Shown here: positions 6,001-8,114 of the stretch, in pieces | How the letters are laid out: each line of letters begins with the position of its first letter | Numbering within the stretch: position 1 is the first letter of the stretch | Virus record (IMG/VR): IMGVR_UViG_2740892526_000013 | DNA from: a virus | Taxonomy: Duplodnaviria > Heunggongvirae > Uroviricota > Caudoviricetes | DNA length: 8,114 bases | Direction: 5' to 3' (one strand) | Made by a program: the position numbers

Positions 6001-8114
6001 GAGGTGAAGACATTAACCCATCTGGCTGGCGGACGCTGGGCTGAGTTCCATACGGCAAGGCGGGGATTTATCCGGCTGGGAAAACGACTGGGCTTTGAGC
6101 GAATGCCGGATGATGAGGATGGCTTCATGGTGTTCAGGATAGCGGTCTGACTGCTACAGTTTTCATCATTGTGTTTAAACCAACATTGTAATTCACATTC
6201 TGACCCTGCTCCGGCAGGGTTTTTTGTTATCCAGGGGGCCATTATGGGTGGAAGTAAAGGCGGTGGTGATACCAAAGTAAAACCAACAGCAGCGCAAATA
6301 GCACAGGAAGAAGTGGCCTGGAAAGGGTGGCAGGATTACAAAAATATCCTCCGCCCGGCTGAAGATAACTTCATGGAAAAGGTCGATGACCTGAACAGTG
6401 AGCAGCAGTACGACAATATTGCTGGCACCACAAATCTGGGGTATCAGAAACAGTTTGGCGAAGCACGGAAGGAGCTTGCGGGTAATCTTGCTCAGTCCGG
6501 CGTTGACCCATCCAGTGGTCGTTTTAATGCGGTAATGAATGCGAACCAGAGTGACCAGGTAACCGGGCAGATTGACACAACCACACGGGGGCAGGTATCG
6601 CAGGCAGATAAGTATGTTGCCGGGCTACAGGATGTTGCTGCTCTCGGTTCTGGTCAGAAGGCGGATGCGTTACAGAGTTTTAACTCTCTGGCAGACAGCA
6701 GTCTGGCAAAAGCTAAATCGGATGCACAGGCGGCGTTTACGAAACAGCAGGGGCGAGCCTCTCTTGTTGGCGCTGGTCTGGGTGCGGCAGGTGCATATGC
6801 GATGCATAAGGCTGGCGGTAGCGGAGGAAGTGGCGGTGCTAAAACACCTGGCACCGGCGCTAATGCCATTCAGCATCAGGCTCAGAACTGGAGACTGTAA
6901 TTATGGAGTATGGCAAATACGAAACTCTCGCAAGGGCTGGTTATTCAGGAGCAGACCGCCCACAGGGTGACTGGCAGACGTCAGCAGCGCTGACACGCCA
7001 ACAATACGACGACTGGCGAACCAGATATTTGCCCCGCGTGGCAAGGCTGGCTGACCTTGGGGAGAACAACAGTCTGATGAATGCACAGCTTGCACGGGTG
7101 GGAGGCCTTGCCACTTCCAGTCTCCGTACAGCGCAGATGGCGCAGGATAACCAGATGGCGAGATACGGGGTAAACCGCCCGGATAATCCCGACAGTAATA
7201 CGCTGGGGTTACGTAATGCCCTGGCAATTGCTGGCGCGAAAAATGGTATCCGTGAAGCCGAACAGGATCGCCAGATGAATATTCTGACGGGGGCTTCTGC
7301 ACCGGCAAGACAGAAACTGAGTGTTGGCGGCCAACTGGTGGCAGCGTAAGGGGGCAATATGGGATACGGTTTACTGGATATTGCAAATCAGTCGCGGCGT
7401 GAGGCATTACAGGGAATAAGTGACGCAGACAGACGACGTGAAGAAATTGAGGCTGCGAACAAACAGATGGCGGCGCAACAGAAAGCGCAGAACAAGCAGA
7501 ATATCGGTACGGGCATTGGTACGGGGGCGGCTATTGGCGCATCCGTTGGTGGTCCTGTTGGTGCTGTTGCTGGAGCAGTAATTGGCGGCATTGCTGGTTC
7601 TTTGTTTTAAGGAGTGGTGAATGAGCGGATTTGCACAGGGGTTACTTGCCGGATTCAGCACCGTTGACCAGGCAATGACCCGTCGTAAGGAGCTTGGTCT
7701 GCGTGAAGCACAGCTTGCCCGGCAACAGAAAAATAACGAGCGCGATTTTGAGTTTGCGCAGTCTCAGTTTGAACATAATAAAAACGTTGATCAGCGGAAC
7801 TTTGATTACAGAGCCAAAGTTGACGACCGTAATTATGCACTGAAGGAGAGGGAGTTTAACGCTAACCAGAATTACCGGAATGCGTCACTGGGTATGGAGC
7901 AGCAGCGACTCCAGTTGCAGAAATACAACCAGCGACGGCTTGAGTATAACGATATGATTGCCCATAGCCAGCCACTAATGGAAGCGCTTGGAAAAGCAAT
8001 TGAGGCTGGCGATCAGGAGGCTGCATGTAACCAGGTGAATCATTTGATACCAACGAGGGTTTTAGTGAAAGGAGGTGAAATCACCTGTAAGATACTGAAA
8101 TAAAACAGGTGATG

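What the first reader, a model, noticed from the sequence alone, without database searches (positions are those of the whole stretch)
6227..8114. Compact operon of four low-complexity proteins including a glycine-zipper membrane protein; function unassigned
Four co-directional genes (218, 148, 83 and 160 aa) sit 2 to 10 nt apart, each with a strong SD, starting right after a terminator and apparently continuing beyond the window. The products are unusual: Gly/Ala/Ser/Gln-rich low-complexity sequence, a glycine-zipper C-terminal tail, and a Q/N/R-rich coiled-coil-like protein. They have no enzymatic motifs and I recognise no family. This composition is reminiscent of virion internal, ejection or fibre-associated proteins, or of membrane-targeting proteins, but it does not match lambda stf/tfa, which would be expected after lom in a lambda-like layout. 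Either this is a structural module from a different phage lineage recombined here, or a cargo system of unknown function.
Basis: partly seen in the sequence, partly recalled or inferred. Interest (0 to 1): 0.6.

Follow-up and report, generated by a model that had tools for sequence, protein, structure and literature searches.

The report
Ejection-protein genes of 933W-type Stx phage
These genes are the front part of the internal "ejection protein" set of a short-tailed Shiga-toxin phage: proteins packed inside the head and most likely shot into the bacterium to help the DNA cross the cell envelope. That makes them an ordinary, poorly annotated structural module, and here the fourth gene is cut in two by a Mu-like prophage.

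Summary
Window 1-8025 is base-for-base identical to phage 933W. The genes are L0130 (218 aa), L0131 (148 aa), L0132 (83 aa) and L0133, which are Sp5 ORF76-79 and phi24B gp51, gp50, an unnamed ORF and gp48.

The first three ORFs, their 2/9/10-nt spacing, their Shine-Dalgarno sites and the upstream hairpin are real. The "160-aa" fourth protein is an artefact. It is codons 1-135 of the 421-aa L0133 read through into the end of a Mu-like prophage inserted at 8026.

The four genes, the upstream L0129 and a downstream giant gene (2806 aa in 933W) keep the same order after the tail-tip gene in Aeromonas and Vibrio phages and 18 viral contigs, so lom is the insert. Published phi24B data detect all four products in purified virions, but they are absent from the cryo-EM model. 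Sp5 deletions show ORF79 and ORF80 essential after DNA packaging, and ORF76 important.

New here: the L0132 glycine-zipper tail is homologous to the C-terminal tail of the P22 ejection protein gp7 (hhalign 92%; 0 of 2000 shuffles reach the score). L0130 aligns weakly but colinearly with the rest of gp7.

Best reading: a P22/T7-type ejection-protein cassette. Ejection itself and each protein's role are inferred. Low novelty.

The parts
5749..6150 (+). L0129 (Sp5 ORF75, 133 aa). This is the conserved first gene of the module and lies outside the finding's coordinates. It occupies the same position as P22 gene 14.
   Evidence: It is 41% identical (E 1e-29) to Aeromonas phage phiARM81mr p64, which in turn matches Vibrio NVP1205O_15. 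A ~120-aa homologue precedes the module in 18 viral contigs. Profile comparison with the P22 gp14 family shows no detectable similarity. It does not appear in the part of the phi24B proteome table that was read.
6202..6221 (+). Terminator-like GC-rich hairpin plus T-run between L0129 and L0130.
   Evidence: The consensus scan finds 8 stem pairs, 5 of them G-C, followed by TTTTGTTATC. In the Aeromonas phage the two genes are only 8 nt apart, so the hairpin is specific to Stx phages. Any function is inferred. Established knowledge of lambdoid phages says that Q-antiterminated late transcription would read through it.
6244..6900 (+). L0130 (Sp5 ORF76, phi24B gp51, 218 aa). A helical virion protein with a weak Gly-rich hydrophobic segment at residues 172-190. 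It is the candidate counterpart of the body of P22 gp7 / T7 gp14.
   Evidence: It is 100% identical to 933W and 216/218 identical to phi24B. The phi24B virion proteome records 523 PSMs, peaking in one gel slice. The ORF76 deletion strongly reduces infectivity and lysogenisation. A broad family profile against the gp7 family gives hhalign probability 45%, E 2e-4, over 158 colinear columns. The AF2 model has pLDDT 43 and contains helices only.
6903..7349 (+). L0131 (Sp5 ORF77, phi24B gp50, 148 aa). A virion protein and probable distant paralogue of L0130.
   Evidence: It is 100% identical to 933W. The proteome records 129 PSMs in total and 83 in the batch digest. The L0130 and L0131 family profiles align with hhalign probability 68%, E 4.7e-5, over 111 columns. 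Its single deletion was not among the defective mutants.
7359..7610 (+). L0132 (Sp5 ORF78, 83 aa). It has a charged N-terminal helix followed by a C-terminal glycine-zipper tail ending ...GSLF. The tail is homologous to the C-terminal tail of the P22/APSE gp7 ejection protein.
   Evidence: It is 100% identical to 933W and phi24B. The family profile against P22 gp7 residues 188-229 gives hhalign probability 92%, E 5.6e-7, with both proteins ending in SLF. Against a gp7-family alignment the probability is 78%, E 1.8e-5. The real tail scores 16.0 bits, against a maximum of 10.3 bits in 2000 composition-preserving shuffles. The virion proteome records 13 PSMs, which its authors set aside as a "bacteriocin homolog" contaminant. 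Its deletion was not defective.
7621..8025 (+). The 5' fragment (codons 1-135 of 421) of L0133 (Sp5 ORF79, phi24B gp48). It is the candidate periplasmic-tunnel ejection protein, truncated in this window.
   Evidence: The DNA is identical to 933W up to base 8025 and diverges after that. ORF79 is essential: its mutant packages DNA but the heads bind no tail-fibre antibody. It gives 1634 PSMs in phi24B virions. AF2 of an intact homologue predicts one long helix at residues 11-128 (pLDDT 67).
8026..8114 (.). Left end of a Mu-like transposable prophage inserted into L0133. It begins TGTAACCAGGTGAATCA.
   Evidence: The same 95 nt (98-99% identity) occur in 233 of 5426 complete E. coli genomes at unrelated sites inside various genes. 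In NZ_CP038290 this end is followed by an unnamed divergent gene, an HTH-protein gene and a Mu transposase gene. The junction itself is found in none of the complete genomes.

Best explanation
The region is the first part of the internal-virion (ejection) protein cassette of a 933W/Sp5/phi24B-type short-tailed Stx phage (Sepvirinae). The complete cassette is L0129, L0130, L0131, L0132, L0133 and the giant L0134 (2806 aa). It follows the nozzle and needle genes, just as genes 14-7-20-16 follow the needle gene in P22.

Shown:
- L0130, L0131, L0132, L0133 and L0134 are present in purified virions but are not part of the resolved capsid or tail.
- L0133 and L0134 are essential at a step after DNA packaging, and L0130 is needed for normal infectivity.
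- The gene set and its order are conserved across distant phages.
- The L0132 tail is homologous to the C-terminal tail of P22 gp7.

Inferred mechanism:
- The proteins are packed in the head and portal/tail lumen at tens of copies each and are expelled ahead of the DNA once the needle is released.
- L0130 and L0132, which together correspond to the body and the glycine-zipper tail of a gp7/T7-gp14-type protein, insert into the envelope, with L0131 as a paralogous accessory.
- L0133, with its ~120-residue N-terminal helix, acts as the gp20/gp15-like periplasmic tunnel.
- L0134 follows as the inner-membrane and cytoplasmic component carrying polyvalent-protein domains.

In this particular genome the cassette is broken: a Mu-like prophage splits L0133. 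Because ORF79 is essential, this prophage copy should be unable to make infectious particles unaided.
For: - Identity: window 1-8025 has no mismatch to 933W. L0130, L0131 and L0132 are 98-100% identical to their phi24B counterparts.
- Virion presence: the phi24B proteome supplement lists gp51 with 523 PSMs, gp50 with 129, the 86-aa ORF with 13, gp48 with 1634 and gp47 with 10962. My crude scaling of batch PSMs per residue to 12 portal copies gives about 30-50 copies of gp51, gp50 and gp48 and about 20 of gp47.
- Not in the visible structure: only gp57, gp61, gp62, gp64, gp67, gp69, gp72 and gp84 are listed as the starting models for the map. gp56 was traced partly as the central needle. gp47 was not seen and its authors propose it is an ejection protein.
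- Genetics: the Sp5 ORF79 and ORF80 deletions package DNA but are non-infectious, and the ORF76 deletion is strongly impaired.
- Synteny: the order nozzle, tail tip, ~120 aa, ~210 aa, ~126 aa, ~85-aa Gly-zipper, ~430-570 aa, giant (about 1900-3250 aa) holds in phiARM81mr and Vibrio phage 1.205.O. All 18 IMG/VR contigs keep the small-gene block in this order, and 16 of them hold a giant ORF on the DNA fetched. P22 has the same order, needle-14-7-20-16. The canonical cassette is small (181-240 aa), medium (431-982 aa), then large.
- Homology: L0132 tail to gp7 tail; L0130 to the gp7 body, weak but colinear.
- L0134 carries LPD5, LPD1, MuF_C and LPD38 domains.
- Glycine-zipper segments like that of L0132 recur in other ejected proteins: tape-measure and internal-virion PHROGs and the crAss001 cargo protein gp45.
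Against: - No experiment shows that any of these proteins leaves the virion or enters the envelope.
- The ORF77 and ORF78 deletions had no reported defect, whereas gp7 is essential in P22. A strict one-to-one functional equivalence therefore fails for L0131 and L0132.
- The ORF79 and ORF80 mutant heads did not bind tail-fibre antibody, which the authors read as a tail-assembly defect.
- The L0130-gp7 similarity is below conventional significance, and two of the four gp7 relatives do not exceed their shuffles.
- L0132 gave only 13 PSMs, and the authors of the data treated it as a contaminant.
- The proteome comes from a preprint.
Confidence: 0.75

Rival explanations
1. They are tail-assembly or tail-lumen structural factors (plug, assembly chaperones, tape-measure-like parts) that are needed to build or hold the short tail but are not ejected to form a channel.
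For: Mondal et al. classed ORF79 and ORF80 as tail-formation genes, because mutant heads were full of DNA yet bound no anti-tail-fibre antibody. The phi24B authors mention internal tail contents that constrain tail orientation in full particles. N4 gp53 is a precedent for a luminal plug encoded next to the ejection genes.
Against: Estimated copy numbers are in the tens. The proteins are absent from a 22-nm tail resolved at high resolution. L0132 is homologous to the tail of a genuine ejection protein. A 2806-aa partner cannot fit in the tail. In N4 and T7, ejection proteins themselves occupy the portal and tail lumen before ejection, so a tail phenotype does not exclude ejection.
Confidence: 0.12
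2. They are head-internal packaging adaptors or scaffolds that load and organise the giant polyvalent protein L0134 inside the T=9 capsid. They may leave with it but do not themselves form a conduit.
For: In the DNA fetched, the small genes are followed by a giant ORF in both reference phages and in 16 of the 18 contigs; the other two loci end before it. The monomers are predicted to be helical or unstructured. How gp47 is organised in the capsid is an open question for the phi24B authors.
Against: P22-like phages have a gp7 with the same tail but no giant protein. The glycine-zipper tail points to membrane insertion rather than scaffolding.
Confidence: 0.1
3. They are a moron or cargo system expressed for the lysogen, such as a bacteriocin-like or membrane-targeting toxin set, and are unrelated to the virion.
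For: L0132 gives sub-threshold hits to Bacteriocin_IIc (19.7 bits against a 27.1-bit cut-off) and to glycine-zipper families. phiARM81mr annotates its homologue as "bacteriocin". The genes lie next to lom and after a terminator-like hairpin.
Against: - The genes sit in fixed structural synteny in phages that lack lom.
- The products are found in virions.
- The deletions give infectivity phenotypes.
- No promoter-like site was found in 5300-8114.
- No PADLOC or NCBIfam family reaches threshold.
Confidence: 0.03

Closest known systems
P22-like ejection (E-) protein cassette: genes 14, 7, 20, 16 (Sf6 gp11/12/13; APSE-1 P31-P35)
   Same: - The cassette has the same position, immediately after the tail-needle gene, and the same size order: ~130-150 aa, ~220 aa, ~420-470 aa, then the largest protein.
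- The L0132 tail aligns with the gp7 tail through to the shared C-terminal ...GSLF, with up to 13 of 20 identical residues.
- The L0130 N-terminus (MGGSKGGGD...AAQ...W...L.P) resembles mature P22 gp7 and APSE-1 P32.
- As in P22, the proteins are virion components that do not appear in the reconstructions.
   Different: - The gp7 equivalent appears divided among three genes: a body (L0130), a paralogue (L0131) and a separate tail peptide (L0132).
- L0131 and L0132 are dispensable in the laboratory, whereas gp7 is essential (my own knowledge of P22 genetics).
- The largest protein is 2806 aa with polyvalent-protein domains, against 609 aa in P22.
- There is no detectable similarity between L0133 and gp20 or between L0129 and gp14.
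T7 internal core / DNA-ejectosome proteins gp14 (outer-membrane pore), gp15 (periplasmic tunnel), gp16 (inner membrane)
   Same: The small-medium-large gene order and the proposed division of labour are the same. L0130 (218 aa) and L0133 (421 aa) fall within or next to the published size ranges for gp14-like (181-240 aa) and gp15-like (431-982 aa) proteins.
   Different: No sequence or fold match was found here. No core stack has been reported in phi24B. L0134 shows no lytic transglycosylase domain, only MuF_C and LPD domains.
N4 (Schitoviridae) ejection cassette: gp50 giant vRNAP, gp51 tunnel, gp52 outer-membrane protein
   Same: A giant (about 2800-3500 aa) encapsidated protein is encoded next to small membrane-active partners. 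The phi24B capsid is T=9, which that paper compares with distant N4 relatives. The partner proteins need detergent and form channels.
   Different: The gene order is reversed, with the giant gene first in N4. L0134 has no RNA polymerase domains. No sequence similarity was detected.
Large polyvalent proteins of phages and conjugative elements (LPD-domain proteins), and crAss001 cargo proteins
   Same: L0134 carries LPD5, LPD1, LPD38 and MuF_C domains. The L0132 profile weakly matches crAss001 cargo protein gp45 (PDB 7qog_M, E 0.005).
   Different: These comparisons concern the downstream gene, which is absent from the window, and a short low-complexity segment. They are context only, not a family assignment for the four genes.

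Membership tests
Podovirus ejection / internal virion protein cassette (P22 gp7-gp20-gp16, T7 gp14-gp15-gp16 type) | The proteins are present in purified virions. | tested here: met
   The published phi24B proteome, read, lists gp51 with 523 PSMs, gp50 with 129, the 86-aa ORF with 13 and gp48 with 1634. The window proteins are 98-100% identical to those of phi24B. This rests on one preprint, not on an experiment done here.
Podovirus ejection / internal virion protein cassette (P22 gp7-gp20-gp16, T7 gp14-gp15-gp16 type) | The proteins are not part of the ordered capsid shell, portal, adaptor, nozzle or fibres. | tested here: met
   The main text of the phi24B cryo-EM paper never mentions gp48, gp50 or gp51. 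The chains listed as starting models are gp57, gp61, gp62, gp64, gp67, gp69, gp72 and gp84, with gp56 traced partly as the needle.
Podovirus ejection / internal virion protein cassette (P22 gp7-gp20-gp16, T7 gp14-gp15-gp16 type) | The genes are clustered downstream of the tail tube/needle genes in the order small, medium, large. | tested here: met
   This order is seen in 933W, phiARM81mr and Vibrio phage 1.205.O. All 18 IMG/VR contigs keep the small and medium genes in this order, and 16 of them hold the giant ORF on the DNA fetched. P22 has the same layout, and the review gives the size ranges.
Podovirus ejection / internal virion protein cassette (P22 gp7-gp20-gp16, T7 gp14-gp15-gp16 type) | The proteins are required for infectivity but not for head assembly or DNA packaging. 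| tested here: inconclusive
   Published Sp5 deletions give a mixed result. ORF79 and ORF80 meet the criterion. ORF76 meets it partly, with infectivity strongly reduced. ORF77 and ORF78 do not, as no defect was reported.
Podovirus ejection / internal virion protein cassette (P22 gp7-gp20-gp16, T7 gp14-gp15-gp16 type) | The proteins are expelled on infection and assemble into a trans-envelope channel. | not testable with these tools
   No published data were found. The preprint proposes ejection only for gp47.
P22 gp7 family (phrog_598, 'DNA ejection') | Sequence homology over the protein. | tested here: inconclusive
   The tail is homologous: L0132 against gp7 residues 188-229 gives probability 92%, E 5.6e-7, and 0 of 2000 shuffles reach the real score. 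The body is only suggestive: L0130 gives probability 3% with the small profile and 45% (E 2e-4, 158 columns) with a 142-sequence profile. Two of the four gp7 relatives exceed their shuffles. Neither L0130 nor L0132 hit phrog_598 in the hmmscan.
gp15/gp20/Sf6 gp12/N4 gp51 periplasmic-tunnel proteins ('leg fold') | Fold or sequence similarity of L0133 to a solved tunnel protein. | tested here: inconclusive
Lambda side tail fibre and assembly proteins (stf/tfa) | Tail-fibre repeats or chaperone domains. | tested here: not met
   None of the four proteins hits a Pfam or PHROG tail-fibre family. Tail-fibre hits belong to the upstream gene at 2310-3578.
Class II bacteriocin (Pfam Bacteriocin_IIc) | A score above the gathering threshold. 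| tested here: not met
   The score is 19.7 bits against a cut-off of 27.1 bits, and the match is confined to the Gly-rich tail.
Anti-phage defence systems (PADLOC) | A match to any defence protein model. | tested here: not met
   Only low-complexity hits of about 14 bits were found, all for L0132.

The most novel reading that the evidence does not exclude
In this widespread podophage lineage (the L0130 family has 849 cluster representatives at 50% identity) the gp7/gp14-type envelope-inserting ejection protein has been naturally taken apart into three polypeptides: a helical body, a paralogue and a free 83-aa glycine-zipper tail peptide. Together with a non-homologous tunnel protein, these form a five-part ejectosome specialised to pass a ~300-kDa polyvalent effector as well as the DNA. 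The dispensability of L0131 and L0132 would then reveal redundancy in how the channel is anchored in the membrane.
Probability: 0.3. Interest if true: 0.5.

Novelty: new member of a known kind. Interest (0 to 1): 0.3.

Why it matters
Short-tailed Stx phages spread Shiga toxin genes, yet these late genes are still annotated as hypothetical in thousands of genomes.

- Placing L0129-L0134 as the ejection-protein cassette gives a concrete, testable model of how these phages cross the E. coli envelope after binding BamA.
- It argues that the "bacteriocin homolog" seen in phi24B virions is a real component rather than a contaminant.
- It explains why ORF79 and ORF80 are essential.

For this genome, the Mu-like insertion in L0133 predicts that the prophage cannot produce infectious particles on its own. 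That prediction bears on whether the strain can transmit the prophage.

Tried and rejected
- Pfam, PHROGs, NCBIfam and PADLOC scans of all the proteins gave only self-families of unknown function or sub-threshold low-complexity hits.
- PDB sequence searches with single proteins and with family profiles found nothing for L0130, L0133, L0134 or L0129.
- Three large homology searches returned only "hypothetical protein" from E. coli, Aeromonas, Salmonella and Plesiomonas.
- AF2 of L0130 gave pLDDT 43, too poor for a fold search.
- hhalign found nothing for L0133 against the gp20 family, for L0129 against the gp14 family or for L0131 against gp7.
- A shared "GFLAG" N-terminal motif between L0133 and P22 gp20 was considered and dropped, because it is not conserved in other gp20 relatives.
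- The top 150 L0130-family representatives were checked for fused gp7-like ...SLF tails, and none had one.
- I first suspected an IS629 or IS1 end at 8026-8114. That was rejected in favour of a Mu-like end.
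Full report
**What the window is.** Megablast of 6100-8114 against phage genomes gives 100% identity over 6100-8025 to 933W, VT2-Sakai (Sp5), Stx2 phages I and II and dozens of other short-tailed Stx phages. An ungapped comparison shows no mismatch between window 1-8025 and 933W. In 933W nomenclature the window holds:

| Window coordinates | 933W gene | Notes |
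|---|---|---|
| 112-393 | L0123 | |
| 610-2313 | L0124 | phi24B gp57, nozzle |
| 2310-3578 | L0125 | phi24B gp56, central needle |
| 3644-3871 | L0126 | |
| 3877-4494 | L0127 | |
| 4585-5319 | lom | |
| 5749-6150 | L0129 | |
| 6244-6900 | L0130 | |
| 6903-7349 | L0131 | |
| 7359-7610 | L0132 | |
| from 7621 | L0133 | start only |

. In 933W, L0133 is 421 aa and is followed by the 2806-aa L0134.

**Checking the observation.** The three complete ORFs are confirmed, as are the 2-, 9- and 10-nt intergenic gaps, the Shine-Dalgarno sequences and the terminator-like hairpin at 6202-6221. The composition claims hold. L0130 and L0132 are 30-36% Ala+Gly. L0132 residues 49-83 form one uncharged glycine-zipper stretch. 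None of the proteins has a cysteine.

The fourth "160-aa" protein is not real. The DNA is identical to 933W up to base 8025 (codon 135 of L0133) and then switches to an unrelated sequence. That 95-nt sequence occurs at 98-99% identity in 233 of 5426 complete E. coli genomes, inside unrelated genes. In one of those genomes it is followed by an unnamed divergent gene, an HTH-protein gene and a Mu transposase gene. It is therefore the left end of a Mu-like transposable prophage inserted into L0133. No complete E. coli genome in the collection carries this junction.

**Published experimental evidence on these exact genes.** Mondal et al. 2016 deleted the Sp5 late genes one by one. Their supplement maps ORF76, ORF77, ORF78, ORF79 and ORF80 to proteins of 218, 148, 83, 421 and 2793 aa, and their primer sequences match the window.
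- The ORF79 and ORF80 deletions gave no plaques and no lysogens but packaged DNA normally. Their heads did not bind anti-tail-fibre antibody.
- The ORF76 deletion was still infectious but strongly impaired.
- The ORF75, ORF77 and ORF78 deletions were not among the defective mutants.

A 2026 preprint on phi24B combines cryo-EM with virion proteomics. Its supplementary table lists peptide-spectrum matches for six-frame ORFs. These correspond exactly to L0130 (gp51, 523), L0131 (gp50, 129), L0132 (an unnamed 86-codon frame, 13), L0133 (gp48, 1634) and L0134 (gp47, 10962). The phi24B proteins are 216/218, 145/148 and 83/83 identical to those of the window.

Scaling batch PSMs per residue to 12 portal copies gives roughly 30-50 copies of gp51, gp50 and gp48 and about 20 of gp47. 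This is my own crude arithmetic; the same scaling gives about 350 for the capsid protein, against the 535 expected for T=9.

None of these proteins is in the atomic model, and gp48, gp50 and gp51 are never mentioned in the text. The authors propose that gp47 is an encapsidated ejection protein. On annotation alone they dismiss a "homolog of a bacteriocin", which from the table can only be L0132, as a contaminant.

**Conservation.** tblastn finds L0130 and L0133 relatives, 2-3 kb apart, in Aeromonas phage phiARM81mr and in about 100 Vibrio phages of roughly 60 kb. Both reference genomes have the same run immediately after the tail-tip gene: ~120-130 aa, ~200-212 aa, ~118-125 aa, a ~78-85-aa Gly-zipper protein, ~443-466 aa, then a ~3130-3190-aa giant. 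Neither has lom, and all four proteins align.

A degenerate-pattern scan of IMG/VR found 62 loci. All 18 distant ones examined keep the small-gene block in this order, and 16 of them hold a giant ORF of about 1900-3250 aa on the DNA fetched.

L0129 is part of the conserved set: it is 41% identical to phiARM81mr p64. The module therefore begins at 5749, not 6227, and the lineage-specific insertion in Stx phages is L0126-L0127-lom. A profile search of 1.84 billion representatives finds 849 L0130-family clusters at E ≤ 1e-3. Every source name for these proteins is "hypothetical protein".

**Link to a known family.** P22 has the order needle (gp26), gp14 (151 aa), gp7 (229 aa), gp20 (471 aa), gp16 (609 aa). 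A review gives the canonical podophage cassette as a gp14-like outer-membrane protein (181-240 aa), a gp15-like tunnel protein (431-982 aa) and a gp16-like large protein. It notes that homologues are often assignable only by size and synteny.

P22 gp7 ends ...STPWGAAIGGGIGLLGSLF. L0132-family members end ...GGPWGAVIGAGVGLLASLF or ...GGPVGAVAGAVIGGIAGSLF.
- Profile comparison of the L0132 family with gp7 gives probability 92%, E 5.6e-7, aligned through the shared C-terminus.
- Comparison with a four-member gp7-family alignment gives probability 78%, E 1.8e-5.
- As a control for composition, the real gp7 tail scores 16.0 bits against the L0132 HMM. Two thousand shuffles of the same 45 residues average -1.6 bits (sd 2.5, maximum 10.3).

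The L0130 N-terminus resembles mature gp7 and APSE-1 P32. With the small profile this is not significant (probability 3%). With a 142-sequence profile, hhalign gives probability 45%, E 2e-4, over 158 colinear columns. In hmmsearch, P22 gp7 and a Vibrio relative exceed all 250 of their shuffles, but APSE-1 and Sortsne do not.

L0130 and L0131 look like distant paralogues (probability 68%, E 4.7e-5, 111 columns). I read this as a gp7-type protein whose body, a duplicate of it, and its glycine-zipper tail are encoded by three separate genes. The tail homology is well supported. The body homology is only suggestive.

**Interpretation.** The best-supported reading is an ejection-protein cassette of the P22/T7/N4 kind (confidence about 0.75).
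- L0130 with L0132 would be the envelope-inserting component.
- L0131 would be an accessory paralogue.
- L0133 would be the tunnel candidate, on the grounds of position, size and essentiality.
- L0134, which carries LPD5, LPD1, MuF_C and LPD38 domains, would be the giant last-ejected component.

The assignments of individual roles are inferences by analogy. The main rivals are non-ejected tail-lumen or assembly factors (0.12) and packaging adaptors for the giant protein (0.10). A moron or cargo reading is effectively excluded (0.03).

**Verdict.** This is a real feature, but an ordinary structural module of a very well-sampled phage group, and direct genetic and proteomic data on it are already published. 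The new points are modest: the gp7 tail homology, the apparent split architecture, the fact that the module starts at L0129, and the Mu-like disruption of L0133 in this genome. Novelty: a new member of a known kind. Interest: 0.3.

Noticed in passing
window 8026-8114: This is the left end of a Mu-like transposable prophage inserted into L0133 at codon 136. The same end lies at unrelated sites in 233 of 5426 complete E. coli genomes, but this junction is in none of them. It should inactivate an essential phage gene.
   Followed up: partly
window 5459-5478, minus strand: There is an exact copy of the 20-nt 24B_1 microRNA-size small RNA described for phi24B in the lom-vb_24B_43 spacer (PMC4426718). 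That RNA is reported to affect lysogenisation and induction.
   Followed up: partly
window 5749-6150: L0129 (133 aa) is not a moron. It is the conserved first gene of the ejection cassette in the Aeromonas and Vibrio relatives. It does not appear in the part of the phi24B proteome table that was read, and it sits where P22 gene 14 sits, though without detectable similarity.
   Followed up: partly
window 3644-3871 and 3877-4494: L0126 and L0127 (phi24B gp55 and gp54) are proposed in the phi24B preprint to form a small complex at the needle tip that may be the BamA-binding receptor protein. gp54 was detected in virions at a low level. PHROGs labels L0127 as a membrane-associated moron.
   Followed up: no
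window 6244-7349: L0130 and L0131 appear to be distant paralogues. They share an N-terminal A..R.QY.DW...P motif and an (A/R)(S/M)GV(D/N)P motif (hhalign probability 68%, E 4.7e-5).
   Followed up: partly
L0130-family representatives (e.g. P0377, P0379, P0386, P0440): Many distant L0130 homologues carry an extra 20-70 residues in front of the conserved MGKGG start. This recalls the 20-residue N-terminal propeptide that the P22 record annotates as cleaved from gp7.
   Followed up: no
window 7359-7610: The L0132 profile gives a weak hit (E 0.005) to crAss001 cargo protein gp45 (PDB 7qog_M). It also hits Gly-zipper segments in the tape-measure and internal-virion-protein PHROGs. This suggests that such segments recur in ejected phage proteins.
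   Followed up: no
L003 5876-7509 (Aeromonas phage phiARM81mr): A gene annotated as a retron-type reverse transcriptase, together with a 23S rRNA intervening-sequence protein gene, lies in the middle of the virion structural genes of this relative.
   Followed up: no
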